A DNA stretch of 38,691 nucleotides from a virus, in the IMG/VR virus record IMGVR_UViG_3300026902_000002. The stretch is one strand, 5' to 3'. This document shows, in pieces, positions 1 through 15,921 of the stretch (the first letter of the stretch is position 1; each line of letters begins with the position of its first letter). The position numbers and the translations under genes are program-made. The notes under the pieces were generated by a model that saw only the letters and a list, made by a program, of their open reading frames with translations, was not told where the DNA came from and ran no database searches.

Positions 1-130
1 TCGTTCAGTCATTCAATCGCTCATTCGTTCAGTCATTCAATCGCTCATTCGTTCAGTCATTCAATCGCTCATTCGTTCAGTCATTCAATCGCTCATTCGT
101 TCAGTCATTCAATCGCTCATTCGTTCATTC
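1..130. repeat. Tandem array, left part: 5 perfect 24-bp units TCGTTCAGTCATTCAATCGCTCAT (1-120) plus a decayed partial unit
   Basis: Direct reading. Bases 1-106 equal 38586-38691. The unit is built from three 8-mers TCRYTCAN, with TC every 4 nt. Confidence 0.95.
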
Positions 131-683: not shown

Positions 684-711
684 TTTACATTACCGCTAAC
701 TGATATATACT
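684..711 (+). promoter_or_regulatory. Candidate sigma70-type early promoter: -35 TTTACA (684-689), 16-nt spacer, -10 TATACT (706-711)
   Basis: Hexamer match read by eye. It sits about 35 nt upstream of the first early ORF. Confidence 0.45.
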
Positions 712-744
712 GAACACATCAACCAACAAATGAGGGTTAACAAA

Positions 745-927
745 ATGAAAGATCTCAAAACTGAAACTTATTATATGAATGTCTCCACCGGCTCAGTCGA
801 TACCAGGGACGGCTGGGACTATGAAGACGAAACCGGTCAGACGGTTAACGCGGCAGATCGTGGGGAGGTCGTTGAAGTTGAGTTTACTGAATGCCTGCCT
901 GGTGAATGGGTACTTGTAAATAGATAA
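745..927 (+). CDS. 60-aa acidic small protein, unknown function (first early gene)
   Basis: ORF 730..927 trimmed to the ATG at 745, which follows GAGGG (731-735). Confidence 0.6.
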   Translation: MKDLKTETYYMNVSTGSVDTRDGWDYEDETGQTVNAADRGEVVEVEFTECLPGEWVLVNR

Positions 928-952
928 CAAACAACAACTGAGGAGAACGAAC

Positions 953-1138
953 ATGAAGAAACTACAAATGAACACGCCGGACGGATGGCTTTATGTATTC
1001 TGCAACAATGGCGGGAAAGTGATAACGCTATCAGAACGCGACAAGGCTAAGGCGCTACCGTCTCAAACATGGATGGCAGAAGCCGACCTCGCATACTTTA
1101 GCAATAAATTTGCCAATTCTGAATTCAGGCTGGCATAA
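953..1138 (+). CDS. 61-aa protein, unknown function
   Basis: ORF track; ATG preceded by GAGGAGAA. Confidence 0.6.
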   Translation: MKKLQMNTPDGWLYVFCNNGGKVITLSERDKAKALPSQTWMAEADLAYFSNKFANSEFRLA

Positions 1139-1151
1139 CTGGAGAACGACC

Positions 1152-1223
1152 ATGACTCACACGACATCAGAAAGCTTTCATCCTATGCGCGGACATGTGC
1201 ATGACGGCGCAACAACAAACTAA
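1152..1223 (+). CDS. Speculative 23-codon micro-ORF (MTHTTSESFHPMRGHVHDGATTN)
   Basis: Below the ORF-track cutoff. It has the same initiation context GGAGAACGAxCATGA as the 953 gene. Confidence 0.3.
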   Translation: MTHTTSESFHPMRGHVHDGATTN

Positions 1224-1224
1224 T

Positions 1225-1245
1225 CAAACGAGGATTATCAAAATG
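1225..1245 (+). promoter_or_regulatory. Conserved translation-initiation cassette CAAACGAGGATTATCAAAATG, copy 1
   Basis: Same 21-mer at 1923-1943 and, with one extra A, at 2633-2654. Confidence 0.8.
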
Positions 1246-1872
1246 ACCGAATACAAATATCAAGTCGCAATCCAGATTAATCATTTGCGCGCTGTGCGCC
1301 TATTTACTGCCACTAAAAATACCAAGCAATATCTTTGCGGCGTGGCGATAAAAAATGGCTATCTTATTGGCGCAAACGATCACTATATCGGCGCCATAAA
1401 ATACACCGATGTCTTGACTGGCCTCCCTGAATTAATCATTCCAAATACACAAATTGATTTTTATCTGAAAAAGACAAAGCGGGCGAAAATAGGCATAGTT
1501 GTCATCGAATGGAACGACGATAAAAAAGGACGGATGACAGACGGGGATAATGAGGAACGATTCATCGGTGTGGATGGATTGTACCCAGACATAACACGAG
1601 TATTCCCGACCCATACTAAAGCAGGAGAGAGTGCCCAGTTCCAGTGGTCTTATCTTACTGTCTTTGAAAAAGCAGCTATTGAGCTTGGTGTTTGTAAAAA
1701 TGAGCCATTCAAAGCGTCATTGCTTCCAAACGGCACCGATACCGCCTGGGTGATGATACCGGGCTACCCGGAATTTGTCGGCGTTTTAATGCCAATGCGA
1801 TTGAAGCCGGTTTCGAACTGCTTAGTGCAGATTGATTATGGCAGCGCTATCGAAAAAGAAGAAATACTTTAA
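1243..1872 (+). CDS. 209-aa protein, tentatively a beta-sliding-clamp (DnaN)-like two-domain protein
   Basis: ORF 1195..1872 trimmed to the ATG inside the conserved initiation cassette. Clamp-like strings: LRAVRLFTATKNTKQYLCGVAIKNGYLIGANDHY and VDGLYPDITRVFP (compare DnaN idG.fPdy..viP). Confidence 0.6.
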   Translation: MTEYKYQVAIQINHLRAVRLFTATKNTKQYLCGVAIKNGYLIGANDHYIGAIKYTDVLTGLPELIIPNTQIDFYLKKTKRAKIGIVVIEWNDDKKGRMTDGDNEERFIGVDGLYPDITRVFPTHTKAGESAQFQWSYLTVFEKAAIELGVCKNEPFKASLLPNGTDTAWVMIPGYPEFVGVLMPMRLKPVSNCLVQIDYGSAIEKEEIL

Positions 1873-1922
1873 TTTATCACTTTGCATTACTAGTAACTAT
1901 GCTAAACTAAATACACAAACAA

Positions 1923-1943
1923 CAAACGAGGATTATCAAAATG
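1923..1943 (+). promoter_or_regulatory. Conserved translation-initiation cassette, copy 2
   Basis: Identical 21-mer to 1225-1245. Confidence 0.8.
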
Positions 1944-2432
1944 GAAACTAAAGACGCTAAAGAGCAAGCCGCTACACAGTATTCTTCAATAGTAGCAATG
2001 CTGGACGCCATTAATTGTGATTATGATCGTTTAACCGAATTGACAGAAGAACGCGAAGAGCTGGTAGAGCTAGGTTCACATGCCGAGCTTATCGAATGGG
2101 ACAGAGAAAACGGCGAAGAGCTGGAAGAGCTTAATGAAGCAGCCGGCGAGTACACAGACCAAGATGACGCTATGGCGGCATTGTACGACTCACCCCTTGA
2201 AGTATTAGTGCGTAGCGGCTGGGCTGGAATAGGTGAAGAGTTAGAGGCCGAAGAGTTTGTGATTTTGTTGTGTACAGGTGGTCCTGCTGTTCGCATTAGG
2301 GGCAATTTAGATGGCTACGATGTAACAGCGGCCTGGCTTGAATATCAAGACTGGGGCACACCATGGACGCACTATACAGGTGCGTCACAAAGCGTACTTA
2401 TTGAATTTGCGCAATATTTTTTTAGTAACTAA
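1941..2432 (+). CDS. 163-aa strongly acidic protein (E/D-rich N-terminal two thirds), unknown function
   Basis: ORF track plus the conserved initiation cassette; composition read from the translation. Confidence 0.75.
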   Translation: METKDAKEQAATQYSSIVAMLDAINCDYDRLTELTEEREELVELGSHAELIEWDRENGEELEELNEAAGEYTDQDDAMAALYDSPLEVLVRSGWAGIGEELEAEEFVILLCTGGPAVRIRGNLDGYDVTAAWLEYQDWGTPWTHYTGASQSVLIEFAQYFFSN

Positions 2433-2448
2433 ATCAGGAGAGTGAAAT

Positions 2449-2625
2449 ATGTGTTGTGACAATTTAATGACCCAACGCGATCAGGATTTGCTTGTTGTGG
2501 GAAAGTGTGATGATTGCGGCGCATGTGTTGATAGTGACGGATGCTGTATTGAGCTTGACGATTGCAGCTATTCGCCTCTGGCATGCAGTAAATGCGGGCA
2601 CCGTCCATGTGATCTTTCCTGTTAA
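2449..2625 (+). CDS. 58-aa Cys-rich protein (12 Cys; MCCDNLMTQRDQDLLVVGKCDDCGACVDSDGCCIELDDCSYSPLACSKCGHRPCDLSC)
   Basis: Not in the ORF track (under 60 aa). ATG follows CAGGAGAG (2435-2442) and the ORF exactly fills the gap between neighbouring genes. Confidence 0.6.
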   Translation: MCCDNLMTQRDQDLLVVGKCDDCGACVDSDGCCIELDDCSYSPLACSKCGHRPCDLSC

Positions 2626-2632
2626 TGATAAA

Positions 2633-2654
2633 CAAACGAGGATTATCAAAAATG
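2633..2654 (+). promoter_or_regulatory. Conserved translation-initiation cassette, copy 3 (one extra A)
   Basis: CAAACGAGGATTATCAAAAATG. Confidence 0.8.
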
Positions 2655-3245
2655 AAAAACTACACAGTCAATGAGGTTCTAAAAATTGCAGAATATGACG
2701 AAGAATCGTGGGTCTATTTTGTGGAGGCAGACGGCGAAGACATTACAATAACAGTAAGTGAATGGGACGGTGATTACAATTATGGTATGCGCGGTGATAA
2801 AGACGGGTCGATCACACTTGATGGTCCGGGGAACGGCTCAGTCTATCGCAAAGGCCATGGGAATGGGCACGCTTGGCGTTTTGGTACTGGCAACGGATCG
2901 GCTTATCGTACTGGCGCGGGCGATGGTTCAGCCTTTCGTACTGGCGTAGGTGAGGGGTCGGCGTATCGTTTTGATTCTGGTGACGGTACGGCATTCCGAG
3001 ATAATCTAGGATCCGGATATGCGGTTCGTGAGGGTGGCGATATTAAATCAGAGGAGGCAAAAATGGAAAAAGTAACTGAAGAAAATTCAGATGAACGGGC
3101 AGCGTATTTGACCACGTGCGAGCTGTGGCTTACAGAAAACACCCCGTTGCGCGAAGAGCTTGCGTATCGAGATGGCCATAAAGCTGGATGGAATAACGCG
3201 ATTAAACAAATGGGAAAACTAATAGACGGGAAAGTTTTATCATGA
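2652..3245 (+). CDS. 197-aa protein with seven tandem 10-residue Gly-rich repeats (G-x-G-[NDE]-G-S-A-[YFW]-R-x); probable beta-solenoid, unknown function
   Basis: ORF 2625..3245 trimmed to the ATG in the conserved cassette. Repeats: GPGNGSVYRK GHGNGHAWRF GTGNGSAYRT GAGDGSAFRT GVGEGSAYRF DSGDGTAFRD NLGSGYAVRE. Confidence 0.8.
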   Translation: MKNYTVNEVLKIAEYDEESWVYFVEADGEDITITVSEWDGDYNYGMRGDKDGSITLDGPGNGSVYRKGHGNGHAWRFGTGNGSAYRTGAGDGSAFRTGVGEGSAYRFDSGDGTAFRDNLGSGYAVREGGDIKSEEAKMEKVTEENSDERAAYLTTCELWLTENTPLREELAYRDGHKAGWNNAIKQMGKLIDGKVLS

Positions 3246-3949
3246 AGATTGAAATTAAACGCAGTAGCGGCAGTCGAGTTTTATTCTCACACGAAGCAGA
3301 AGACAATTCGATGAGACTTACTTTAACCGCAGCACGGTATGCTGGAGCAAACTTGACTGGAGCAAACTTGACTGGAGCTGATTTGACTAGAGCTGATTTG
3401 ACTAATGCAAATTTGACTATAGCTGATTTGACTAATGCAAATTTGACTAGAGCTGATTTGACTAATGTAAATTTGACTGGAGCTGATTTGACTAGAGCTG
3501 ATTTGACTAATGTAAATTTGACTGGAGCAAACTTGACTGATGCTGATTTGACTAATGCAAATTTGACTAGAGCTGATTTGACTAATGTAAATTTGACTGG
3601 AGCTGATTTGACTAGAGCTGATTTGACTAATGTAAATTTGACTGGAGCAAACTTGACTGATGCTAAGCTATCGGGCGCGATGATTGAAGGGTATTGCTTG
3701 TTAATCGGTCAGCGCCCGATATTTCAAATCGGGCCCATTGGTTCACGCTGCGACTACTTTACTGCTTACGTCACAGATAAGGGGCTGAGGTTCGACGCAG
3801 GCTGTCAGAGGCAAATTACGCGCGAAATCTTTGAGTCTCGTCTACATAATGGTCATGGCGATAATATGCATGCTGCTGAATATAAAGCTGCATTAGCTCT
3901 AATTGATATACATGCGGAAATTTGGAGAAACGACAACGTGGAGGAATAA
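3242..3949 (+). CDS. 235-aa pentapeptide-repeat protein (about 24 A[DN]LT[GNRD] repeats) with an unrelated ~90-aa C-terminal domain
   Basis: ORF track; ATGA overlap with the upstream stop. The textbook A(D/N)LXX repeat runs from ANLTGANLTGADLTRADL to ANLTDAKLSGA. Confidence 0.9.
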   Translation: MKIEIKRSSGSRVLFSHEAEDNSMRLTLTAARYAGANLTGANLTGADLTRADLTNANLTIADLTNANLTRADLTNVNLTGADLTRADLTNVNLTGANLTDADLTNANLTRADLTNVNLTGADLTRADLTNVNLTGANLTDAKLSGAMIEGYCLLIGQRPIFQIGPIGSRCDYFTAYVTDKGLRFDAGCQRQITREIFESRLHNGHGDNMHAAEYKAALALIDIHAEIWRNDNVEE

Positions 3950-4019
3950 TCATGCTGGCTGGGCGAATGCGATTAAACAAATGGGGAAACTACTTGATGA
4001 CGTTAAACTGGAGGGATGA
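3912..4019 (+). pseudogene. Relic duplicate of the 3' end of the 2652..3245 gene (frame ends ..HAGWANAIKQMGKLLDDVKLEG*)
   Basis: Compare ..HKAGWNNAIKQMGKLIDGKVLS* at 3176-3245. The 17-nt core GCGATTAAACAAATGGG is identical at 3198-3214 and 3968-3984. Confidence 0.5.
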
Positions 4020-4020
4020 A

Positions 4021-4266
4021 ATGCGAGACAGATATATAGAAGAAGAATTCCCTAGATATTTTGTTTTTGGGCCGCACCATGATGATGGCCGCGTGGATAT
4101 ATCTACGGTGAAGAATTCAACGCTGGCAACGGTGAGTCCATTAGACGCTGAAACGTTGATTGCAGATAGGGCCGCCGCAGTGACAATGATATGTAACATG
4201 GCGCGGGCGTTCAATGCGGCTGCCCCGGACGATTTTACAAAATTCTGGTATGGGGAGACAAAATGA
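4021..4266 (+). CDS. 81-aa protein, unknown function
   Basis: ORF 3922..4266 trimmed to the ATG at 4021, which follows GGAGGGA. The upstream part of the ORF is the relic region read in another frame. Confidence 0.6.
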   Translation: MRDRYIEEEFPRYFVFGPHHDDGRVDISTVKNSTLATVSPLDAETLIADRAAAVTMICNMARAFNAAAPDDFTKFWYGETK

Positions 4267-4646
4267 AAGACTGGGTGCCTAAGGCTATAAGGTTTTTTAA
4301 ATGCGTCGGTAACACGATAGGCTTAGCAGCAAAACCATCCAAATACGACATTTATTACAAAACGTCTACGCCCGTGACTTTAACAATGAACGGCAAGGTA
4401 TATAGATTGTCGGATGTATCGTATAAGGATAAGACATATAAGGCCGGAATTGTAGCAGTGGGCAATGATGTATATAGGTTTGAATATGATCTAATATATC
4501 GTGGCTATTTGATCAATGGCGGTAATGGGGTCAGGTTGTATACCGCTACGGATGACTTATTGACGGCAAAATCGTATTTGTTTAATTACTTACTTGAGCA
4601 GTCAGACATGAAACGACAAGCACAAGAGGAGGATGTTGCAAAATGA
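4263..4646 (+). CDS. 127-aa protein, unknown function
   Basis: ORF track; ATGA overlap with the upstream gene. Confidence 0.7.
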   Translation: MKDWVPKAIRFFKCVGNTIGLAAKPSKYDIYYKTSTPVTLTMNGKVYRLSDVSYKDKTYKAGIVAVGNDVYRFEYDLIYRGYLINGGNGVRLYTATDDLLTAKSYLFNYLLEQSDMKRQAQEEDVAK

Positions 4647-4831
4647 AAATTCAATCACTTAGTCAGATTCAGGAGTTATCCATAAGTAACCGTAGCGCCC
4701 AGTGCAGGCAGTGTAGGGGGCGATGGTTTGATGGAAGCGGTGAGTACTTGCGCATTAGGCAGTTTGGTTTATGTGCAAAGTGTGTAGCAGATACGACAAA
4801 TAATTCTACAATTATTACAGAGAAGGAGTAA
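4643..4831 (+). CDS. 62-aa putative zinc-ribbon protein (CRQC..17 aa..CAKC)
   Basis: ORF track; ATGA overlap; two CxxC pairs. Confidence 0.65.
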   Translation: MKIQSLSQIQELSISNRSAQCRQCRGRWFDGSGEYLRIRQFGLCAKCVADTTNNSTIITEKE

Positions 4832-4834
4832 CAC

Positions 4835-4933
4835 ATGGGCGCAGACGATGAAAGTTTTAGCCAGCAAAAATTCTGGGTAGTGATCGGGGTGATTATATTC
4901 GCCGAGCAATTTATAAACTATTTTTTAAACTGA
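4835..4933 (+). CDS. 32-aa hydrophobic micro-protein (MGADDESFSQQKFWVVIGVIIFAEQFINYFLN)
   Basis: Below the ORF-track cutoff; strong SD GAAGGAG 6 nt upstream; one hydrophobic segment. Confidence 0.45.
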   Translation: MGADDESFSQQKFWVVIGVIIFAEQFINYFLN

Positions 4934-4940
4934 GGCGTAC

Positions 4941-5102
4941 ATGCAAACAAGCGAAAAGATCAAAGAGTCAAACCGAAAGACACAGGAAACGTTCAGAGCC
5001 AATCAACGTGCAATGGGGCGCGTTCGATGGCATGAATGGGTGACTATAGAAGAGAAAGAGGTACTCAAGAACGTTTTGGCACAGATCAGAGGGGAAGCAT
5101 GA
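4941..5102 (+). CDS. 53-aa basic protein, possibly a small DNA-binding (RHH-like) protein
   Basis: Below the ORF-track cutoff; GAGG 5 nt upstream; ATGA overlap with the next gene. Sequence: MQTSEKIKESNRKTQETFRANQRAMGRVRWHEWVTIEEKEVLKNVLAQIRGEA. Confidence 0.45.
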   Translation: MQTSEKIKESNRKTQETFRANQRAMGRVRWHEWVTIEEKEVLKNVLAQIRGEA

Positions 5103-5305
5103 GAGCTAAAATTGTAGAAAATCTACTTGATGTTATAGAGCAAGAAATGGGTGAAGCTGAAGGCCACAGGTATGACAAAGATTTTCTTGCCCTTTGTGGC
5201 CGTATCGCTGGAAAGGAAGTTGACCTAGTTTTTACCGCTGGCGACGCATTTGAGGCGATAGACAATAACTACTGGCTCCCAGATTGCTGCTGGGTTGTCA
5301 TATAA
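5099..5305 (+). CDS. 68-aa protein, unknown function
   Basis: ORF 5036..5305 trimmed to the ATG at 5099, which follows GAGGGGAAG and makes an ATGA overlap. Confidence 0.6.
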   Translation: MRAKIVENLLDVIEQEMGEAEGHRYDKDFLALCGRIAGKEVDLVFTAGDAFEAIDNNYWLPDCCWVVI

Positions 5306-5336
5306 CACAGGCATTAAGGCTGCGCCGTAAGGCGTC
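5303..5336 (+). repeat. 34-bp junction repeat, copy 1 (TAACACAGGCATTAAGGCTGCGCCGTAAGGCGTC)
   Basis: Perfect copy at 5631-5664. It starts at the TAA stop of the upstream ORF and contains the stem CGCC-GTAA-GGCG. Confidence 0.95.
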
Positions 5337-5384
5337 ACGCCTGGATTGATTTGTTAGGTTGCAACCAATTAAGAGGATTGAGAG

Positions 5385-5633
5385 ATGAATGAGTTTGGGA
5401 TGTACCCGAGCAACACCGATGAAGTGCGCCGATGGGAGTCTGAGCGCGAGAACGCAACAGCGAGGCTTGAGCTGGCGAGAATGCGGGAGTGCTGCAAGTT
5501 GCTCGTATCACAGCACGATCCCGTGCATAGCCTCGGCATTGACCGCGACGCGCTACGAATTTTGTTGGGGTTTGTGCAGCATCACGACGTAAAGAGGCTG
5601 CGGCGTGATTGTGAGGCCCACATTGCAACCTAA
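5385..5633 (+). CDS. 82-aa protein, unknown function (cassette between the 34-bp repeats)
   Basis: ORF track; ATG follows GAGGATTGAGAG. By eye it is more GC-rich than the flanking early genes. Confidence 0.65.
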   Translation: MNEFGMYPSNTDEVRRWESERENATARLELARMRECCKLLVSQHDPVHSLGIDRDALRILLGFVQHHDVKRLRRDCEAHIAT

Positions 5634-5664
5634 CACAGGCATTAAGGCTGCGCCGTAAGGCGTC
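5631..5664 (+). repeat. 34-bp junction repeat, copy 2
   Basis: Identical to 5303-5336; again starts at a TAA stop codon. Confidence 0.95.
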
Positions 5665-5710
5665 GGGCCTTGAATAACTTGCTATGCCGGTTTTAACTAA
5701 GGATGAAACG

Positions 5711-6190
5711 ATGAACATACATTTTTCAAGCGTGACAGATTTACACGCGACACCCCAAGAGTTTTTCGACAAGCTCAATGCGGAGTTTAACTTTACGCTG
5801 GACGTTTGCGCGACAGACGAAAACACAAAGTGCTTGTCATGGTTTACCAAAGAGCACGATGGATTGTGTCAAGAGTGGAAAGGGGTTGTTTGGATGAACC
5901 CTCCCTACGGACGCGAAATAGGGCGCTGGATGGAGAAGGCCAACGAAGCAGCGAACGAAGGCGCAACGGTGGTTTGCTTGGTTCCTGCACGCACCGATAC
6001 GAAATGGTGGCATGAGTGCGCCATCCAGCACGAGGTGCGCTTTATCAGGGGGCGACTCAAGTTTGGGGACGCGAAGAACAGCGCACCATTTCCTAGCGCC
6101 GTGATTGTGATGCGGAGCCGGGTAGGGCATAACGCAGAAATAACCGGCGGCTTAAATGAGTTGTTAGATCAGAGGGGAAGAATAAGATGA
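5711..6190 (+). CDS. Phage Dam-family DNA N6-adenine methyltransferase (159 aa)
   Basis: Motifs FTLDVCA and VWMNPPYGR (NPPY catalytic motif), LVPARTDTKWW, FIRGRLKF. ORF 5684..6190 trimmed to the ATG that follows AAGGA. Confidence 0.85.
   Translation: MNIHFSSVTDLHATPQEFFDKLNAEFNFTLDVCATDENTKCLSWFTKEHDGLCQEWKGVVWMNPPYGREIGRWMEKANEAANEGATVVCLVPARTDTKWWHECAIQHEVRFIRGRLKFGDAKNSAPFPSAVIVMRSRVGHNAEITGGLNELLDQRGRIR
6127..6171 (+). repeat. 45-bp junction repeat, copy 1 (inside the methyltransferase 3' end)
   Basis: GCATAACGCAGAAATAACCGGCGGCTTAAATGAGTTGTTAGATCA; 44/45 identical to 7099-7143. Confidence 0.95.
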
Positions 6191-6723
6191 ACTTTGAAGG
6201 GTTTGGTAAAATCGCAAGATGGTCTAGGAATATAACAATAACTGAAAAAATAGATGGGACGAATGCCTGTATTTTTATCGGAGAAAATGGGGAGTTTTTG
6301 ACAGCGTCGCGGACACGATGGATTACGCCAGCAGATGACAACTATGGGTTTAGTAAATGGGCGCATGAGAACAAGGATGACTTACTTTCGCTTGGTGTAG
6401 GGAAACACTTTGGCGAGTGGTGGGGCGAAGGTATCCAGCGGAGGTATGATCAAAACAAAAAACGGTTTAGCCTTTTCAACACATCAAAATGGAGCGCGGT
6501 TAGGCCAGAGTGCTGTGATGTAGTGCCTATTATTTACAATGGCATACTTGACGAAAAAGCAGTAAGTAGTGCTATTGAAATATTACGGACGAATGGCAGT
6601 GTAGCTGCACCTGGTTTTATGCGCCCAGAGGGAATAGTGATCTGGCATGAGGCAGCGTGTAAGTATTTCAAGAAAACTCTGGAGAAGGACGAAGAACCTA
6701 AAAGCGTGGCAGCTTGGCTATGA
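6187..6723 (+). CDS. Minimal ATP-dependent RNA ligase-type nucleotidyltransferase (178 aa)
   Basis: Motif I KIDGTN (KxDGxN), then GEWWGEG, EGIVIW and YFKKT, in the order expected for ligase motifs III-V. ATGA overlap with the methyltransferase stop. Confidence 0.7.
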   Translation: MNFEGFGKIARWSRNITITEKIDGTNACIFIGENGEFLTASRTRWITPADDNYGFSKWAHENKDDLLSLGVGKHFGEWWGEGIQRRYDQNKKRFSLFNTSKWSAVRPECCDVVPIIYNGILDEKAVSSAIEILRTNGSVAAPGFMRPEGIVIWHEAACKYFKKTLEKDEEPKSVAAWL

Positions 6724-6822
6724 ATATGCGCGGCGCGAGTTTGCGAAAGCTACCGGACTTTACAAGGAAGATGATTATGACGCATAACGTTCAAGTTCAG
6801 GGTTATGCATCTGGAGACGAGA

Positions 6823-7104
6823 ATGAGTGATTACAAACGAGTACCGACAAGCGCCGAAGTGTGGGCGGTGATTCGGGCGCGGCATCCCGAAATGCGCGTG
6901 TTCGGCAGCTACAGCGCCCCGGACGGCGACGAGTTCGGCAACCCGAGCAAAGGAAGGATGTTTACGAGCTACGGATTCGAGCATGGCGATTACCCGGTGA
7001 TCGAGGCGCAGACGACATGGGACATTGACCCGGAGGCGCGGCACAAGAGGATAAACGAGCAGCATGAATACTGGCTGTGCTTGCCGGTGCGCGAAGATGC
7101 ATAA
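6823..7104 (+). CDS. 93-aa protein, unknown function; visibly GC-rich
   Basis: ORF 6805..7104 trimmed to the ATG that follows GGAG. Its stop lies inside copy 2 of the 45-bp repeat. Confidence 0.6.
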   Translation: MSDYKRVPTSAEVWAVIRARHPEMRVFGSYSAPDGDEFGNPSKGRMFTSYGFEHGDYPVIEAQTTWDIDPEARHKRINEQHEYWLCLPVREDA

Positions 7105-7143
7105 CGCAGAAATAACCGGCGGCTTAAGTGAGTTGTTAGATCA
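7099..7143 (+). repeat. 45-bp junction repeat, copy 2
   Basis: One mismatch (7128 G vs 6156 A). In the methyltransferase frame it reads HNAEITGGLSELLDH*. Confidence 0.95.
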
Positions 7144-7157
7144 CTAAGGAGGATGCG

Positions 7158-7403
7158 ATGCACAGACGTAAAAGGTTTTTAATTTATCCAAAAAACTACA
7201 AGCCTGGTGATGGTTTTGTCATTAGATACTCAAAGCGGCAAGCGTGGAAAGTAGCGGTGCGTATGGGAGAAGGAGCAAGCGTTGACGTTGAGGTCAACAT
7301 TCACCCGGCGCGTGGGAAATTTTGGGCGTCGAGCCAGCAGTTAAACCTTTGGGAGCCGCTGGCGTTGAAGCCTCAACTAAACTTTAGAGGGGTAATAAAA
7401 TGA
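7158..7403 (+). CDS. 81-aa protein, unknown function; paralogue of 8501..8710
   Basis: ORF track; SD AAGGAGGA. Shares the pattern [FY]L[IV]YP...[IV]R[YF]SK.QA.K.A...G with the 8501 gene. Confidence 0.7.
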   Translation: MHRRKRFLIYPKNYKPGDGFVIRYSKRQAWKVAVRMGEGASVDVEVNIHPARGKFWASSQQLNLWEPLALKPQLNFRGVIK

Positions 7404-7406
7404 ACG
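7366..7406 (+). repeat. 41-bp junction repeat, copy 1
   Basis: TGAAGCCTCAACTAAACTTTAGAGGGGTAATAAAATGAACG; 39/41 identical to 7601-7641. Confidence 0.95.
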
Positions 7407-7600
7407 TAGCTGAATTGATTGAATTTTTGCAGACACAACCTAAAGAATTACAAGTCGCGTATGACATGTATAGCGAACACCGCCTTATTGAGCAGATGGA
7501 CATTCGTATTGTGGAGGCATGTGAGCCGCGCCCAGATGGTTGGATTCAGCGCAAGCGCCCTGACAAGCCAACTCAGTTGTATTTGATGCTGCCCGGTTAA
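7400..7600 (+). CDS. 66-aa protein, unknown function (cassette between the 41-bp repeats)
   Basis: ORF track; ATGA overlap with the upstream gene. Confidence 0.65.
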   Translation: MNVAELIEFLQTQPKELQVAYDMYSEHRLIEQMDIRIVEACEPRPDGWIQRKRPDKPTQLYLMLPG

Positions 7601-7641
7601 TGAAGCCACAACTAAAATTTAGAGGGGTAATAAAATGAACG
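7601..7641 (+). repeat. 41-bp junction repeat, copy 2
   Basis: Encodes the relic ..MKPQLKFRGVIK*, matching the C-terminus ..LKPQLNFRGVIK* of the 7158 gene. Confidence 0.95.
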
Positions 7642-7823
7642 ACGTAGATAATGAGGAATTTGAAGATATTATCTTTGATTACGAATGCGAACGTGACGCA
7701 ATCAACGATGCGGCACCACTGGATATGCCTGCCGAATGTGATAACTGCGGGTGCATTGATTGCATTCGGGTCAGAGGTGGCATTGAGTGCGCAGAGTGTG
7801 GAAAGTTTTACAGAATTCAATAA
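7635..7823 (+). CDS. 62-aa acidic zinc-ribbon protein (CDNCGCIDC ... CAEC)
   Basis: ORF track; Cys pairs. Confidence 0.65.
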   Translation: MNDVDNEEFEDIIFDYECERDAINDAAPLDMPAECDNCGCIDCIRVRGGIECAECGKFYRIQ

Positions 7824-7834
7824 GGATAGGTGAA

Positions 7835-8041
7835 ATGAAAAAGTATTATGTAATATCGGCACTATGGGTTTTGTTCGCTGTATGTCACACGATAGTGTCA
7901 GCGGCTAATTTGCATCATGGAAATACTCTTAATGTGGTTGTCGGGGTGGGCTTCGCTACAGTGTCTTTTATAATGGGCATGCGCAATATGAATATTATAC
8001 ACTTAATGAATTTAATGGATGGGGATGATCAAAATGGATGA
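7835..8041 (+). CDS. 68-aa membrane protein with two predicted TM segments
   Basis: ORF 7787..8041 trimmed to the ATG that follows AGGTGA. Hydrophobic stretches: ISALWVLFAVCHTIV and VVVGVGFATVSFIMG. Confidence 0.6.
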   Translation: MKKYYVISALWVLFAVCHTIVSAANLHHGNTLNVVVGVGFATVSFIMGMRNMNIIHLMNLMDGDDQNG

Positions 8042-8504
8042 AAATGCTTGTGATGTGTGCGGCTGTCATTTATTCATTGCTCGCAAAGATGGCGTGGAGT
8101 GCCAGGTGTGCGGCAATGTAATCAAAGATGAATTAGCGCCTCAAATACTACTGAGTAGTTTAATGGATGCAAAATTTGAACTGCTTAGCTTGGTGAGCAC
8201 AGTAGAATCGAATCGTATTCGGATGAGGACAGTAAACGAATCATGCGTTATCGCATTCGATTTTTATTACAACGATTTTAACAGGATCCTTGGAATTACA
8301 AACTGTGAACTTATGGGAGCAGAGCTAAAAAACGACTCCGTAACAACGAGTGCAGATATCGGGTTAATGTGTGTGGTATGGAACAATGAGCACGTATGGA
8401 AACCACTTGTTGAGGCGCTAAACAAAAGCGAATTACTTGGTGATATCGTAATGACGCGTGGGGCTTATAGAAATAGCATCAAAAGTGAATGGGTGCGATC
8501 ATGA
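8034..8504 (+). CDS. 156-aa protein with an N-terminal zinc ribbon (CDVC..13 aa..CQVC), unknown function
   Basis: ORF 8019..8504. The start is uncertain (8019, 8025 or 8034); 8034 follows GGGGA. Confidence 0.65.
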   Translation: MDENACDVCGCHLFIARKDGVECQVCGNVIKDELAPQILLSSLMDAKFELLSLVSTVESNRIRMRTVNESCVIAFDFYYNDFNRILGITNCELMGAELKNDSVTTSADIGLMCVVWNNEHVWKPLVEALNKSELLGDIVMTRGAYRNSIKSEWVRS

Positions 8505-8710
8505 AATTACATGAATTTGGACCAATTAAGAAAATAAGAATTGGATATCTGGTCTATCCTGATTCCCGTAATAGTCCATGTCGTGTCCGATTCAGTAAAT
8601 ATCAGGCAAAGAAACTGGCTAAATCCTTAGGACCAGAGGCAGAGATTGCCAAGATGGTTACAGAGTTTCGCCCAGATGGATGTATCTGGACTAAATTAAC
8701 TGAGGTTTGA
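8501..8710 (+). CDS. 69-aa protein, paralogue of 7158..7403
   Basis: ORF 8489..8710 trimmed to the ATGA-overlap start. Confidence 0.65.
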   Translation: MKLHEFGPIKKIRIGYLVYPDSRNSPCRVRFSKYQAKKLAKSLGPEAEIAKMVTEFRPDGCIWTKLTEV

Positions 8711-8732
8711 ACAATCATCCTAAATTAAAACT

Positions 8733-8756
8733 GGGGGCTACGGCCCCCTTTTCTTT
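8733..8756. terminator. Bidirectional intrinsic terminator: GGGGGC-TACG-GCCCCC stem-loop flanked by T-runs on both strands
   Basis: A 6-bp GC stem with a 4-nt loop, followed by TTTTCTTT on the + strand and AGTTTTAATTT on the - strand. It sits between convergent genes and overlaps the primase stop codon. Confidence 0.75.
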
Positions 8757-11484: not shown

Positions 11485-11903
11485 GCATCGAAGACAGCCT
11501 TTCAAGAATTGCCACAGCATTGGAACAACTGGTGAGTAAACAAAGTACACCACCCCCCGTTGCTACAAAAAAGAAAGGGAATGATATCTGCGATAAACCA
11601 GTTGTTGCATCTGCTGTACCAGAGGCCGCGCCTGTTATAAAACCCGAACCCGCTATGATGACAGATGTGCCTACTGTGGTTGAAAGCGTACCTACTGTAG
11701 CCCCGCTCCCATTTTCAGACAAGGCAGGATTGACCGCATACATCATGGCCGCTTACAAAAAACTCGGGCCAATCAGCGGTTCGAAAATAGAAGGCATCAT
11801 ACAGTCGCTAGGCTTTAACCGGGTAAGTGATGTTACACCAGACAGCTTCTTTAATGTGTATAATAAAGTGGAAGAGCTGATTGCTCAGTCAGGGGACAAG
11901 TAA
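11481..11903 (+). CDS. 140-aa protein with a Pro/Val/Ala-rich linker, unknown function
   Basis: ORF track; ATGA overlap. Confidence 0.7.
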   Translation: MSIEDSLSRIATALEQLVSKQSTPPPVATKKKGNDICDKPVVASAVPEAAPVIKPEPAMMTDVPTVVESVPTVAPLPFSDKAGLTAYIMAAYKKLGPISGSKIEGIIQSLGFNRVSDVTPDSFFNVYNKVEELIAQSGDK

Positions 11904-13192
11904 TGACAGAAAATACTCACTCTGAGATGTCGCCAAGTGGTTTTGAGAGACTGATGACATGCCCGGCATCATACAAGGCCAACAAGAAATATAGAGAGAT
12001 TGAGTGCGTCAGTAATCCGGCCAGCATTGATGGAACGCATTCTCATACGTTACTTGCATATTGCGGAAAGGAGAGGATTCATCCAACAAGTACATTGGGT
12101 ATGACATTTGAGGACCACGAAGGGACTTTTACTGTCGCTGTCGATAGAGCGGAGCGGGTCGCCGTAGCGTTTGATTACATTGCCTCCCGTGTTGCGGAAC
12201 TTGGCGAGGATCAAACGGAGGTGGAGCACGAGGTCAAGATGGATAGCGACTCAGTATTTGGTCGTGGTGACATGGGCGGTACGGCAGACGTTATTATCTT
12301 ATCGAAGGATACGATGGAGGTAATTGATTATAAGGATGGTAGGGAAAAAGTTGATGTGGAGTGTGCCCAGTTGTACATTTATGGGCTACTGGCGATGCGA
12401 AATTATTTCTATCGTGCCCATAATCCTTATCCTTTTGTAAATACTGTCAGGCTTACCATAATACAACCGAGGTTGGGAACCACGGATGGGCCATCCAGTG
12501 GTATATCATCTATAGATATTCCAATAGGCGAGTTGTGGGAAAGACGCAATCTGTACATAGCTGCGGCAGCGGCGTGTGAAGAGGACGACGCGCCTTATGT
12601 ACCGTCGGACTTGTGCAGATATTGCCCCAGTGCCACAAATAGTAGTTGTACTGCGTTTGCAAACCATGTGTTCAACAAGGTGAATATTTTATTCTCTGCA
12701 ACGGATATTACAGATCAGGCTGCGAAGAAGGATGCGTCGTCCCTGACAAATGACCAATTGCGGGAAATAATACTGGCTGGCCCCTTATTGAGATCATTGA
12801 TTGCAGATGCGGAAAAGGAAGAAGTAAGACGCTTGGCCAGCGGGCAGGTAATCGAAGGACGAAAGCTGGTCCACGGCAAAGGGTCAAGGGATTGGAAATA
12901 CGAAGAAGATGAGATGGCAGCCAAGTTGAAAAAATTCGGTATCCCAAAAACTCAAATTTATAAGCAAACGCTGTTATCACCAGCGCAGGCTGAAGGAATT
13001 TCATGGAAGAAAGCAGACGGTAGTGTTTCAAGACTGTCCAAGAAGCAGATAGACATGTTGCGAAATGACTATGTGGTCTGGTCACCAGGGAAGATCATCG
13101 CTGTAGATAGTGATGATAAGAGAGAAGAAGTGGGCAGTAGGTCATGTGAGGCGCTGTTCAATAGTGTCGACCCACTTCCGGAATGGCTGTAA
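11903..13192 (+). CDS. DUF2800-like PD-(D/E)XK (Cas4-type) nuclease, 429 aa
   Basis: GTADVIILSKDTMEVIDYKDG (D...D-x-K). Four Cys arranged as in Cas4/AddB Fe-S clusters (TCPASY ... CRYCPSATNSSC). Synteny with SSB and polymerase. Confidence 0.75.
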   Translation: MTENTHSEMSPSGFERLMTCPASYKANKKYREIECVSNPASIDGTHSHTLLAYCGKERIHPTSTLGMTFEDHEGTFTVAVDRAERVAVAFDYIASRVAELGEDQTEVEHEVKMDSDSVFGRGDMGGTADVIILSKDTMEVIDYKDGREKVDVECAQLYIYGLLAMRNYFYRAHNPYPFVNTVRLTIIQPRLGTTDGPSSGISSIDIPIGELWERRNLYIAAAAACEEDDAPYVPSDLCRYCPSATNSSCTAFANHVFNKVNILFSATDITDQAAKKDASSLTNDQLREIILAGPLLRSLIADAEKEEVRRLASGQVIEGRKLVHGKGSRDWKYEEDEMAAKLKKFGIPKTQIYKQTLLSPAQAEGISWKKADGSVSRLSKKQIDMLRNDYVVWSPGKIIAVDSDDKREEVGSRSCEALFNSVDPLPEWL

Positions 13193-13242
13193 TGAGTAAT
13201 TAAAAAACAAGTACCTTAATTTAAAAAATGGAGAATTTAATA

Positions 13243-15899: not shown

Positions 15900-15921
15900 C
15901 CCACCAATCATTGAGGAAGTT

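What the first reader, a model, noticed from the sequence alone, without database searches (positions are those of the whole stretch)
3183..7641. Recurrent architecture: four early-region cassettes, each bracketed by direct repeats that duplicate the upstream gene end and ribosome-binding junction
There are four independent cases within 4.5 kb. (a) 3183-3228 versus 3955-4003 brackets the pentapeptide gene. (b) The perfect 34-mer at 5303-5336 and 5631-5664 brackets ORF82. (c) The 45-mer at 6127-6171 and 7099-7143 (44/45) brackets the RNA ligase plus ORF93. (d) The 41-mer at 7366-7406 and 7601-7641 (39/41) brackets ORF66. In every case the repeat covers the last codons and stop of the upstream gene plus the SD or start of the next gene. 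As a result, excising one repeat unit and the cassette would restore an intact gene-to-gene junction. A 15-mer AGATCAGAGGGGAAG is also shared between two different junctions (5083-5097 and 6166-6180). Families (b) and (c) both begin TAAC(A/G)CAG at a stop codon. This resembles the repeat-flanked mobile early cassettes (PeSL elements) described in T4-type phages, but here the repeats are coding-end/RBS junctions rather than promoter stem-loops. It may be a general mechanism for gain, loss and exchange of accessory (likely counter-defence) genes.
Basis: partly seen in the sequence, partly recalled or inferred. Interest (0 to 1): 0.75.

Follow-up and report, generated by a model that had tools for sequence, protein, structure and literature searches.

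The report
Repeat-bracketed gene cassettes in phage operon
In this ~38.7-kb phage, small accessory genes in the early operon are stitched together by a few reusable junction sequences (gene tail, stop, ribosome-binding site, start), and related phages carry different genes between the same junctions, so the repeats mark and probably guide gene swapping, much like the known T4 'PeSL' elements but without promoters.

Summary
All four repeat pairs, the shared 15-mer and the TAAC(A/G)CAG motif are real and far beyond chance. The anatomy is less uniform than described. Only (d) spans gene tail + stop + SD + start. (a) and (c) duplicate coding tails next to the SD. (b) is a post-stop hairpin spacer.

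The region (730-8710) looks like one promoter-to-terminator operon of about 24 small genes. Four other haplotypes of this phage, from metagenomes, share a gene backbone but carry different, non-homologous genes in the variable slots. Homology-block ends lie a median of 7 nt from gene boundaries. The d and e junction sequences recur in front of different genes in different haplotypes. One gene sits on opposite sides of orf62b in two haplotypes. An RNA-ligase block is 99.6% identical between haplotypes whose flanks are 88-92% identical.

orf82, the methyltransferase and orf93 have foreign GC3, and homology to their relatives in unrelated phages stops at the repeats. A simulated crossover in every pair leaves intact genes. 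No recombinase was found.

Three distant relatives (51-55% identity in replication proteins) have their own junction repeats. No exact empty site for a, b, c or d was found.

Verdict: short-homology, linker-mediated cassette shuffling. This is a promoter-less, translation-junction variant of PeSL/Botstein-linker shuffling.

The parts
684..711 (+). Only strong sigma70-like promoter candidate upstream of the early operon (TTTACA-16-TATACT, 10/12)
   Evidence: consensus match only, function not shown
730..8710 (+). Early operon: about 24 small, tightly packed or overlapping genes on one strand; the hyperplastic cassette array
   Evidence: no promoter enrichment inside it
1223..1245 (+). J1 junction copy (CAAACGAGGATTATCAAAATG) at the start of gene 1243
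   Evidence: (D4)
1921..1943 (+). J1 junction copy at the start of gene 1941
2631..2654 (+). J1 junction copy at the start of the GSAYR-repeat gene (F5); W/A homology breakpoint at 2638
927..955 (+). J2 junction; 45 nt identical in haplotype C upstream of a non-homologous gene, with the breakpoint right after ATGA
3178..3226 (+). Repeat a, copy 1: codons ..KAGWNNAIKQMGKLID of the F5/orf60 gene tail
   Evidence: (D9)
3242..3949 (+). Cassette a: pentapeptide-repeat protein (235 aa; 195 aa in some otherwise near-identical contigs)
3949..3997 (+). Repeat a, copy 2: in-frame relic ..HAGWANAIKQMGKLLD(DVKLEG*), followed by SD GGAGGG and the ATG at 4021
4941..5102 (+). orf53 (backbone gene F11), left anchor of the e junction in W, A and C
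5083..5097 (+). Repeat e, copy 1 (AGATCAGAGGGGAAG): orf53 tail plus SD of orf68
   Evidence: (D20)
5099..5305 (+). orf68, first gene of the e-bracketed block
5303..5356 (+). Repeat b, copy 1: starts at the orf68 stop; hairpin with GUAA loop, no T tract
   Evidence: (D6)
5385..5633 (+). Cassette b: orf82 (GC3 0.675). Homologs in three other phages match only 5382-5623. TTGCAACC sits at 5359 and 5623.
5631..5684 (+). Repeat b, copy 2: starts at the orf82 stop; nucleotide homology to L023's methyltransferase module begins at 5683
5711..6190 (+). Dam-type N6-adenine methyltransferase (PF05869; GC3 0.60). The module shared with other phages ends at GGGCATAACG (6134); the last ~18 residues are translated junction sequence.
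6127..6171 (+). Repeat c, copy 1 (methyltransferase tail ..HNAEITGGLNELLDQ)
   Evidence: (D8)
6166..6180 (+). Repeat e, copy 2: SD of the RNA ligase; overlaps c copy 1 by AGATCA
6187..6723 (+). RNA ligase (PF09414). 6173-6712 is 99.6% identical to haplotype A. The native tail is clipped at KSVA|.
6712..6787 (+). 25-codon relic of an unidentified gene's 3' end (..GLYKEDDYDA*), ending in GCATAA
   Evidence: reading of the sequence; no homolog sought
6823..7104 (+). orf93 (GC3 0.734); full-length homolog in the unrelated siphovirus MW202423
7099..7143 (+). Repeat c, copy 2: supplies orf93's last codon and stop; reads ..HNAEITGGLSELLDH* in the methyltransferase frame; followed by SD AAGGAGG. Its right half travels with orf81b in L108.
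7158..7403 (+). orf81b
7366..7406 (+). Repeat d, copy 1: orf81b tail (LKPQLNFRGVIK*) + SD + ATGAACG of orf66
   Evidence: (D5)
7400..7600 (+). Cassette d: orf66 (F18); also d-bracketed in haplotypes C and D, absent from A and B
7601..7641 (+). Repeat d, copy 2: relic MKPQLKFRGVIK* + SD + ATGAACG of orf62b
7635..7823 (+). orf62b (backbone gene F19), preceded by a d junction in all five haplotypes
8733..8748 (.). Bidirectional intrinsic-terminator-like hairpin closing the early operon
11903..13192 (+). PD-(D/E)XK / DUF2800 nuclease, candidate recombination exonuclease (role inferred)
13228..13986 (+). Enc34-type ssDNA-binding protein (recombination role inferred)
15892..17325 (+). SNF2-family helicase (recombination role inferred)

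Best explanation
The early operon of this phage is a hyperplastic array of promoter-less, ORF-sized modules joined by a small set of reusable junction sequences of 15-54 nt. Each junction is built from a gene tail and stop, an SD, a spacer and a start codon, or, for (b), a post-stop hairpin spacer.

The same junctions occur at several places in one genome and in co-circulating relatives. Short-homology recombination between non-allelic copies can therefore insert, delete, replace or transpose a module, hand it ready-made translation signals, and leave its neighbours intact. The likely routes are single-strand annealing or replication template switching during co-infection, plausibly using the phage's own PD-(D/E)XK nuclease, ssDNA-binding protein and helicase.

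New junction duplications arise when a foreign segment enters by two crossovers at staggered microhomologies. For (c), leaving the recipient at AGATCA and re-entering at GCATAA 39 nt upstream would duplicate 45 nt. Alternatively, two genomes carrying alternative genes behind the same junction undergo one unequal crossover. That stacks both genes and leaves a truncated copy of the upstream gene's tail, as in (a) and (d).

The four brackets, plus the 15-mer bracket, are thus footprints of insertions and also substrates for precise deletion.

Shown: the repeats and their reading frames, alternative occupancy and breakpoints in relatives, foreign composition, module limits that coincide with the repeats, and intact genes after in-silico excision. 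Inferred: the recombination pathway and enzymes, the direction of each event, any circular intermediate, and any adaptive role of the cargo.
For: (1) Repeats are real and confined to the early operon: all 7 dispersed repeat hits lie in 21% of the genome.
(2) Downstream copies of a, c and d read in frame as tails of the upstream gene.
(3) Five haplotypes were compared: W = window; A = L001/L016-19; B = L020; C = L021; D = L108. They share a backbone order, F0-F5-F8-F9-F11-(F15)-(F18)-F19-F25-F21-F22, with non-homologous genes in the slots.
(4) The 24 homology-block ends lie a median of 7 nt from a gene boundary against about 69 nt at random; 0 of 100,000 permutations reached the observed median.
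(5) The d core precedes orf66, orf62b and F24 in 9 junctions with 6 different upstream genes, and the same nucleotides are read in different frames as different C-termini. The e junction follows orf53 in W, A and C and precedes the RNA ligase in W and A, bracketing different cargo. The J2 junction is identical for 45 nt ahead of non-homologous genes.
(6) F24 lies upstream of orf62b in A and downstream of it in C.
(7) The RNA-ligase block starting in the e junction has 2 mismatches in 540 nt against 8-12% in the flanks, P about 3e-17.
(8) Copies within a genome share genome-specific variants (GAGGGGT twice in W, GAGGAGT twice in D, GATGGAG twice in C), and two polymorphisms are swapped between d1 and d2 in W versus D.
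(9) GC3 of orf82, the methyltransferase and orf93 is 0.60-0.73 against 0.32-0.52 for the other early genes. Their homologs occur in unrelated phages, and homology ends at the repeat edges: 5683 and 6134 for the methyltransferase, 5382-5623 for orf82. Five methyltransferase variants diverge right after GGGCATAACG.
(10) In-silico crossover in each pair yields intact genes, and the e product has the orf53 tail and e-junction sequence seen in haplotype A.
(11) No integrase or transposase was found; a nuclease, an SSB and an SNF2 helicase are present.
(12) One operon: a single strong promoter candidate and a terminal bidirectional terminator.
(13) Distant relatives have their own unrelated junction repeats: DSL-LC05 has a 49-nt junction three times; L115 has a 70-nt repeat at 97%; L003 has a 55-nt repeat.
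(14) The W arrangement is 100% identical in independent JGI, ENA and Logan assemblies.
Against: No relative shows a precise empty site for a, b, c or d, and the exact predicted deletion proteins for a and c are not in the protein collection.

Several breakpoints are not at repeats (6712 in the RNA-ligase tail; 2752; 4507). L108 carries a truncated methyltransferase stump, and the boundaries of (c) show only 6-nt microhomology. Illegitimate recombination plus selection can therefore account for part of the pattern without any guiding role for the repeats.

The concerted-evolution signal rests on a few sites in about 41 nt; overall identities of paralogous and orthologous copies are similar.

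Only about five haplotypes were available, all from metagenomes. No host, no isolate, no read-level data. The enzymology is entirely inferred.
Confidence: 0.6

Rival explanations
1. Passive scars only. Random illegitimate or microhomology-mediated recombination between co-infecting phages inserts DNA anywhere. Purifying selection keeps only products in which the upstream gene's end and the downstream gene's overlapping SD and start both survive, and in a tightly packed operon that forces a duplication of the junction. The repeats have no role in promoting exchange (Hendrix-type model).
For: 6-nt microhomologies AGATCA and GCATAA at the two ends of (c), and 8-nt TTGCAACC around orf82. A truncated methyltransferase stump in L108. 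A 25-codon relic at 6712-6787 and clipped RNA-ligase tails. Stop-less in-frame fusions at some junctions. Some breakpoints lie away from repeats. Overlapping stop/start signals make junction duplication a prerequisite for viable insertions.
Against: One-off scars do not explain multi-copy junction families: J1 three times in W and three times in C; d at 9 sites with 6 different upstream genes; a DSL-LC05 junction three times. Nor do they explain the same junction being used for different cargo in different haplotypes, or genome-specific variants shared by both copies. Repeats of 34-54 nt at 87-100% identity are within the range that PMC2839356 and PMC2327257 report phage recombination systems can use, so some recombination between them is hard to avoid.
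Confidence: 0.25
2. The repeats are conserved mainly as functional RNA or DNA signals, and their association with variable genes is secondary. Candidates are translation-initiation or translational-coupling regions, operators for a phage translational or transcriptional regulator, or RNA processing and stability hairpins.
For: The d core contains the palindrome CTAAAnTTTAG next to the SD and is kept across haplotypes that are only 80-87% identical in the flanking genes. (b) is a stable GUAA-loop hairpin placed after two stop codons. The J1, J2 and J5 families are SD-centred.
Against: (a) and (c) have no structure or shared motif and read as coding relics. There is no Rfam match and no promoter enrichment. 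A signal function does not explain in-frame relic tails, foreign GC3 of the bracketed genes, or module limits at the repeat edges. It is compatible with the best explanation rather than an alternative to it.
Confidence: 0.08
3. A dedicated site-specific system, integron-like or transposon-like: an unrecognised phage recombinase acts on the junction sequences and moves cassettes as circles.
For: Promoter-less cassettes sit downstream of a single promoter candidate, as in integrons. The stop-codon-proximal motif TAAC(A/G)CAG is shared by b and c, and GCATAACG recurs at three module ends. An 8-nt direct repeat and a 12-nt inverted repeat surround orf82. Many early proteins have no known function.
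Against: No integrase, transposase or homing endonuclease was found in Pfam scans covering 26 of the 29 ORFs of at least 150 aa plus most early genes. The repeat families are unrelated to one another in sequence, length (15-54 nt) and structure, and range from 80% to 100% identity, unlike attC sites or target-site duplications. Distant relatives use entirely different junction sequences.
Confidence: 0.05
4. Assembly artefact: strain variants collapsed into a chimeric contig, creating false duplications. Or ordinary tandem duplication of paralogous genes.
For: Some Logan contigs break inside repeats: L012 at 5635 and L013 at 7627. Several haplotypes come from related sample series. L003's repeat is partly a paralogous tandem duplication.
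Against: The W arrangement is 100% identical across independent assemblies from JGI, ENA and Logan, including contigs of 32.9-38.7 kb that span all the repeats. No two window early genes are paralogous at E<1e-4.
Confidence: 0.02

Closest known systems
PeSL (promoter-early stem-loop) cassettes of T4-type phages (Arbiol et al. 2010, PMC2839356; Comeau et al. 2014, PMC4122927)
   Same: Short conserved sequences between the stop of one gene and the SD/start of the next, concentrated in a hyperplastic region of small ORFans. They flank the genes that differ between close relatives and are proposed to act as homology patches for recombination that inserts, deletes or replaces ORFs. No dedicated recombinase is known.
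   Different: PeSLs contain a consensus sigma70 promoter and a stem-loop terminator, so each cassette is transcriptionally autonomous. Here no promoter signal is found, only (b) has a hairpin and it lacks a T tract, and the cassettes appear promoter-less inside one operon. Several repeats overlap coding tails and leave in-frame relics. The genome is about 38.7 kb and not T4-like. Mini-circles were shown for PeSLs; nothing of the kind is shown here.
Botstein/Campbell 'linker' sequences and the short conserved boundary sequences of lambdoid phages (as discussed in PMC2839356; cited in PMC2327257 as its reference 9)
   Same: Short conserved sequences at module boundaries, shared among related phages, allow homologous exchange of otherwise unrelated modules and place them correctly for expression.
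   Different: Those concern temperate lambdoid phages and multi-gene functional modules. Here the modules are single small ORFs in what appears to be a non-temperate phage (no integrase found), and the linkers are translation-initiation junctions repeated within one genome as direct repeats.
Integron gene-cassette arrays
   Same: A row of promoter-less, single-ORF cassettes expressed from an upstream promoter, each separated by a recombination-prone repeat. Cargo is variable and accessory.
   Different: No IntI integrase, no attC-type imperfect palindromes, no attI. The repeat families are unrelated to each other. The mechanism is inferred to be general homologous or microhomology recombination, not site-specific.
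Morons and illegitimate-recombination mosaicism (Hendrix model, as summarised in PMC2839356), and Red-type homeologous recombination (Martinsohn et al. 2008, PMC2327257)
   Same: Mosaic joints coincide with gene boundaries. Foreign genes of different composition are added between resident genes. Phage recombinases tolerate short and diverged homology.
   Different: Morons carry their own promoter and terminator and need no conserved flanks. Here the inserted genes borrow resident junctions, and the flanks are conserved repeats.

Membership tests
PeSL elements (T4-type phages) | Located between the stop codon of the upstream gene and the SD/start of the downstream gene, in a hyperplastic region rich in ORFans | tested here: met
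   All repeat copies lie at gene junctions of the early operon. Definition taken from PMC2839356.
PeSL elements (T4-type phages) | Contains a consensus sigma70-type early promoter | tested here: not met
   No promoter-like site falls in any a-e copy. The region has 14 sites against 17.3 expected from shuffles.
PeSL elements (T4-type phages) | Contains a stable stem-loop acting as terminator or attenuator | tested here: not met
   Only (b) folds (dG -18 and -23 kcal/mol, z -1.7 and -2.0), and it has no T tract. c and d are not different from shuffles. Terminator function is not testable here.
PeSL elements (T4-type phages) | Repeats coincide with insertion, deletion or replacement breakpoints between closely related phages | tested here: met
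   The d, e, J1 and J2 junctions sit at W/A/B/C/D breakpoints.
PeSL elements (T4-type phages) | Formation of excised mini-circles by recombination between neighbouring elements | not testable with these tools
   Needs reads or PCR from lysates.
Linker / boundary sequences of modular phage evolution | Short sequences conserved among related phages that flank non-homologous modules | tested here: met
   The d core occurs in 9 junctions across 5 haplotypes with 6 different upstream genes. The J2 junction is identical for 45 nt ahead of non-homologous genes.
Linker / boundary sequences of modular phage evolution | Evidence that exchange has actually occurred through them | tested here: inconclusive
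   The RNA-ligase tract at 99.6% identity starts in the e junction, and F24 is transposed. However, the right ends of some tracts are not at repeats, and direction and mechanism are inferred.
Integron cassette array | Tyrosine-recombinase integrase (IntI) adjacent to the array | tested here: not met
   No integrase in Pfam scans covering 26 of the 29 ORFs of at least 150 aa and most early genes. Gene tables of related loci also show none.
Integron cassette array | attC sites: imperfect inverted repeats with a conserved core at every cassette boundary | tested here: not met
   The repeat families are unrelated in sequence and length, and c and d are unstructured.
Integron cassette array | Promoter-less cassettes expressed from a common upstream promoter | tested here: inconclusive
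   A single strong promoter candidate at 684-711 and a terminator at 8733-8748. This is a consensus scan only.
Transposon / IS insertion with target-site duplication | Transposase gene and terminal inverted repeats; short fixed-length perfect duplication | tested here: not met
   No transposase was found. The duplications are 15-54 nt at 80-100% identity. Only orf82 has a 12-nt inverted repeat and an 8-nt direct repeat nearby.
Tandem paralogous gene duplication | The bracketed or neighbouring genes are paralogs | tested here: not met
   All-against-all BLASTP found no within-window pair at E<1e-4.

The most novel reading that the evidence does not exclude
Translation-initiation junctions (gene tail + SD + start) act as a selected, family-wide 'plug-and-play' linker system. 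In the large family of ~36-40-kb phages with this Prim-Pol primase-helicase, and possibly in other small lytic phages, promoter-less accessory genes would be captured, shuffled and shed at high frequency by recombination between junction copies, possibly through circular cassette intermediates. That would make the early operon a recombinase-free analogue of an integron, used for rapid turnover of host-takeover and counter-defence genes.
Probability: 0.3. Interest if true: 0.75.

Novelty: new variant of a known kind. Interest (0 to 1): 0.55.

Why it matters
How phages gain and lose small accessory genes without wrecking densely packed operons is a long-standing question: conserved linkers versus random illegitimate recombination followed by selection.

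This locus shows both signatures at base resolution in one small genome, with several natural haplotypes for comparison. There are reusable junction sequences that recur in front of different genes, and there are microhomology scars and relic gene tails.

If junction repeats do raise exchange rates, three things follow. They would help explain why mosaic joints sit at gene boundaries. They would give a simple sequence signature for finding recently acquired, possibly counter-defence, genes in uncultivated phages. And they would suggest a design rule for engineering phage operons: insert cargo between duplicated junctions.

The system is experimentally tractable. Four brackets of 34-49 nt lie within 4.5 kb, so deletion and exchange can be scored by PCR.

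Tried and rejected
- GenBank phages: megablast found nothing and blastn found only scattered gene-level hits. The nearest phage is DSL-LC05 at 51% DNA-polymerase identity.
- IMG/VR and JGI metagenome scans with the primase returned only one close relative (L001 = L002) and one distant one.
- Exact searches in IMG/VR for the c, d and e junction sequences and the b hairpin found only that relative or nothing. The b hairpin is also absent from 185,579 reference genomes.
- The RNA ligase was a poor anchor. Its 75-87% homologs sit in unrelated phage backgrounds, which is useful only as evidence that the gene is promiscuous.
- orf81b has no relative in IMG/VR.
- Exact-sequence look-up of the predicted (a) and (c) deletion products was negative. 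This is weak evidence, because one substitution would hide them.
- Rfam and tRNA scans were negative.
- Overall identity matrices of the d copies do not by themselves prove concerted evolution; only the site patterns are suggestive.
- Rejected: assembly chimera, because independent assemblies are identical; paralogous duplication, because there are no paralogs; PeSL membership, because promoter and terminator are absent; integron or transposon, because there is no recombinase and the repeats are heterogeneous.
- I first read c copy 2 as a relic of an ancestral methyltransferase C-terminus. Homologs show that the family ends at ..VIVMR(SRVGHN), so the 'tail' is itself junction-derived sequence appended at the GGGCATAACG boundary.

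Full report
THE OBSERVATION

The window is a complete or nearly complete phage genome of about 38.7 kb. Its two ends carry the same tandem array. It encodes a small and a large terminase subunit and a capsid protein. It also encodes a Prim-Pol/PriCT-2/DUF3987 primase-helicase, a DUF2800/PD-(D/E)XK nuclease, an Enc34-type ssDNA-binding protein, a DNA polymerase and an SNF2 helicase.

- (a) 3178-3226 / 3949-3997: 49 nt at 80%.
- (b) 5303-5336 / 5631-5664: perfect 34-mer, extending to 54 nt at 87%.
- (c) 6127-6171 / 7099-7143: 44/45.
- (d) 7366-7406 / 7601-7641: 39/41.

The 15-mer AGATCAGAGGGGAAG occurs only at 5083 and 6166. TAAC[AG]CAG occurs five times on the + strand against 1.05 expected, and four of the five open the b and c copies. 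A whole-window self-comparison at E<=0.01 puts all seven dispersed direct-repeat hits in the 8-kb early operon, which is 21% of the genome. The remaining 30 kb has one hit, an internal duplication in the SSB gene.

ANATOMY

Translation of each copy in all frames shows that the pairs are not of one kind.

Copy 1 is the last 12 codons and stop of orf81b (LKPQLNFRGVIK*) overlapping the SD and the ATGAACG of orf66. Copy 2 reads MKPQLKFRGVIK* in the same frame and carries the SD and ATGAACG of orf62b.
- (a) duplicates about 16 penultimate codons (KAGWNNAIKQMGKLID against HAGWANAIKQMGKLLD). Both copies run on in frame to their own stops, and copy 2 ends one base before the ATG at 4021.
- (c) reads HNAEITGGLNELLDQRGRIR* as the methyltransferase tail in copy 1. 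In copy 2 it reads HNAEITGGLSELLDH*, and there it also supplies the last codon and stop of orf93 in another frame.
- (b) is non-coding. It begins at the TAA of orf68 and of orf82 and folds into a GC-rich hairpin with a GUAA loop and no T tract. (c) and (d) have no structure beyond shuffled controls.

Promoter-like sites are not enriched (14 found against 17.3 expected), and none lies in a repeat. The one strong candidate is at 684-711, just before the first early gene, and a strong bidirectional terminator sits at 8733-8748. The region therefore looks like a single operon of about 24 small, tightly packed genes, and the cassettes are promoter-less. No Rfam family matches.

The 15-mer pair is a fifth bracket, around orf68-orf82-methyltransferase. 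A further family, CAAACGAGGATTATCAAAATG, precedes three consecutive genes. About half of the operon's gene starts lie in or just downstream of a member of an intragenomic repeat family.

A simulated crossover inside each of the five pairs leaves the upstream gene in frame with a near-identical tail. The downstream gene stays intact with normal spacing.

RELATIVES

GenBank has no close relative. The primase-helicase retrieved one from IMG/VR (L001). Through its 90% protein cluster it retrieved a set of metagenomic contigs.

Contigs from JGI, ENA and Logan assemblies are 100% identical to the window across the repeats, so the arrangement is not an assembly artefact. Four other haplotypes exist: A (L001/L002/L016-L019), B (L020), C (L021) and D (L108).

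Gene families shared between haplotypes keep one order: F0-F5-F8-F9-F11(orf53)-(RNA ligase)-(orf66)-orf62b-F25-F21-F22. The genes between them differ and are not homologous. Haplotype A lacks window 3057-4624, which includes the pentapeptide gene. It has a different ~100-codon gene between two e-type junctions where W has orf68-orf82-methyltransferase, and a different 56-codon gene (F24) between two d-type junctions where W has orf93-orf81b-orf66. Haplotype C lacks 5104-7375 and has one 66-codon gene there, but it keeps orf66 bracketed by d-type repeats. It carries F24 on the other side of orf62b.

The 24 ends of homology blocks lie a median of 7 nt from a gene boundary, against about 69 nt for random positions; 0 of 100,000 permutations reached that median. 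No two genes of the window's operon are paralogous at E<1e-4.

JUNCTIONS AS EXCHANGE POINTS

Aligned on the start codon, the d core (A[CT]AACTAAA[ACT]TTTAGA[GT]G[GA]G..ATGAA[CT]) occurs at nine junctions in five haplotypes. It sits in front of three different genes and behind six different genes. The same nucleotides serve in different frames as the C-terminus of orf81b (..KPQLNFRGVIK*), of the RNA ligase in A (..HGHTTKL*) and of a C-specific gene (..PPTTK*).

The e junction follows orf53 in W, A and C and precedes the RNA ligase in W and A. The J2 junction is identical for 45 nt in W and C and is followed, right after ATGA, by unrelated genes.

The two d copies within a genome share genome-specific variants (GAGGGGT in W, GAGGAGT in D, GATGGAG in C). 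Two polymorphic sites are swapped between d1 and d2 in W relative to D. This suggests exchange between copies, although whole-repeat identities do not separate paralogous from orthologous copies.

The RNA-ligase block 6173-6712 starts in the e junction and differs from haplotype A at 2 of 540 positions. The flanks differ by 8-12%, giving P about 3e-17, so this was a recent transfer.

FOREIGN CARGO AND MODULE LIMITS

orf82, the methyltransferase and orf93 have GC3 of 0.68, 0.60 and 0.73. The other early genes range from 0.32 to 0.52. Their homologs, and those of the RNA ligase, occur in unrelated phages.

Nucleotide homology to the nearest methyltransferase (L023) runs from 5683, the end of b copy 2, to 6134, the start of c copy 1. 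Homology to orf82 relatives covers only 5382-5623, which is the ORF itself. The repeats are therefore joints between imported modules and are not parts of the modules.

Five methyltransferase variants all diverge right after GGGCATAACG..GHN*..GHNAK*..GHNAKLAVQQ....GHNE* and W's ..GHNAEITGG... GCATAACG occurs three times in the window against 0.56 expected, and all three are at module ends between 6127 and 7106. In L108 only the right half of (c) precedes orf81b, and it is fused to what looks like a 28-codon stump of a different methyltransferase (the identification is by eye).

RNA-ligase tails are clipped at different points in W and A relative to the family consensus ..PKSVAER... A 25-codon relic lies at 6712-6787. 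These are scars of illegitimate or microhomology joins.

MOST LIKELY MECHANISM

The simplest history for c and e is one insertion. An ancestor carried methyltransferase(..ELLDH*)-orf81b. A segment 'GAGGGGAAGAATAAG-RNA ligase ... orf93' came from a genome in which it followed orf53. It entered by a join at AGATCA, which is shared by the orf53 tail and the methyltransferase tail. It re-joined at GCATAA, 39 nt upstream of the exit point, and that duplicated 45 nt.

(a) and (d) fit one unequal crossover between two relatives that carried alternative genes behind the same upstream gene. Such a crossover stacks both genes and leaves a truncated tail. The 80-95% identity of those copies matches the divergence between haplotypes.

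Once present, the repeats are long enough for phage recombination systems. Both cited papers report that these systems use short or diverged homology: PMC2839356 cites patches under 50 bp for T4, and PMC2327257 shows lambda Red recombining diverged sequences. Precise deletion, replacement and transposition through shared junctions should therefore follow, which is what the haplotypes show.

No integrase, transposase or homing endonuclease was found. The phage does encode a PD-(D/E)XK nuclease, an SSB and an SNF2 helicase. Their involvement is inferred, not shown.

COMPARISON WITH KNOWN SYSTEMS

PeSLs of T4-type phages are the closest described system. They are conserved stop-to-start intergenic motifs flanking ORFans in hyperplastic regions, and they mediate indels and mini-circles by homologous recombination (PMC2839356, PMC4122927). 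This locus shares their location and their coincidence with breakpoints. It fails two defining tests, the sigma70 promoter and the terminator stem-loop, so it works like a PeSL array without being one.

It matches the older 'linker' concept of Botstein and the short boundary sequences invoked for lambdoid phages (PMC2839356 discussion; PMC2327257 introduction). It resembles an integron array only in layout.

I found no paper in the searchable library that describes translation-junction repeats bracketing promoter-less cassettes in a phage early operon. That library is incomplete, so this is not proof of novelty.

GENERALITY

Three distant members of the same phage family (51-55% identity in DNA polymerase or primase) have their own unrelated junction repeats in the equivalent operon.
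- DSL-LC05 has a 49-nt stop-SD-start sequence at three gene starts, and GGGGGCCTGATCATGA at two or three more.
- L115 has a 70-nt, 97%-identical repeat covering gene end, SD, ATG and five codons around one gene.
- L003 has a 55-nt repeat ending in ATG at two genes, partly from a paralogous tandem duplication.

LIMITS

No precise empty site for a, b, c or d was found. The exact predicted deletion proteins for a and c are absent from the protein collection. An orf53 with the W body and the deletion-type ..GEE tail does exist (P0246), but I could not retrieve its context. There is no read-level evidence for deletions or circles, no host, and only five haplotypes. Whether the repeats raise exchange rates or are merely scars kept by selection cannot be settled from sequence alone; I put about 0.6 on the former combined with the latter, and 0.25 on scars only.

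VERDICT

This is a real, well-supported feature and a new variant of a known kind, with moderate interest.

Noticed in passing
window 1-130 and 38460-38691; also 185-620: Both ends of the window carry the same 24-nt-period tandem array (TCGTTCAGTCATTCAATCGCTCAT), so the contig is circularly permuted or terminally redundant. Next to it lie a 9-nt CAGATGTGA array and direct and inverted copies of ATGTGACAGA, which look like iterons or operator sites upstream of the early promoter.
   Followed up: partly
window 3242-3949; loci L104, L110, L112: The pentapeptide-repeat gene is 235 aa in the window but 195 aa in otherwise almost identical contigs (3 mismatches; a 120-nt change in repeat number). 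One W-type contig (L011) also ends inside this repeat.
   Followed up: partly
window 2652-3245; L001 reverse strand 1834-2700; L020 (haplotype B) 307-aa ORF: Some junctions have lost the upstream stop codon, giving in-frame read-through fusions with an internal SD+ATG. Examples: the GSAYR-repeat protein + orf60 in W, gene X + RNA ligase (288 aa) in A, and an F5-like N-terminus + F21 in B.
   Followed up: no
window 6712-6787: A 25-codon open stretch (..LGYEYARREFAKATGLYKEDDYDA*) sits between the RNA ligase and orf93. It looks like the relic 3' end of another gene and ends in the recurrent GCATAA(CG) motif.
   Followed up: partly
window 5353-5366 and 5623-5634: orf82 is flanked by a perfect 12-nt inverted repeat (GTTAGGTTGCAA / TTGCAACCTAAC). 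This includes the palindrome GGTTGCAACC and an 8-nt direct repeat TTGCAACC, whose second copy starts exactly where homology to orf82 relatives ends.
   Followed up: partly
L108 1-135: What looks like a 28-codon N-terminal stump of a different (N6/N4-type) methyltransferase (MSIELKNIDCMEYMATLPDKAYELAIAA*), with its own SD, is fused to the right half of the (c) sequence upstream of orf81b. The family assignment is by eye, not by a profile search.
   Followed up: partly
window 13615-13758 (inside the SSB gene 13228-13986): Tandem 54-nt duplication at 89% identity inside the Enc34-type ssDNA-binding protein gene; also present in haplotype A (L001).
   Followed up: no
L001 reverse strand 4044-4622; L021 (haplotype C) equivalent: Haplotypes A and C carry an extra 192-193-aa gene (F26) between the last early gene and the bidirectional terminator. 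It is absent from the window (8710-8737).
   Followed up: no
L009 5154-7316: A 75%-identical RNA-ligase homolog in an unrelated phage lies one gene upstream of an IS605 OrfB/TnpB-type gene.
   Followed up: no
L114 (phage DSL-LC05) 8960-10130: Two adjacent genes after the SNF2 helicase share nearly identical stretches within their first ~165 nt (49 and 56 nt at 96%). This is a partial-gene duplication outside the early operon.
   Followed up: no
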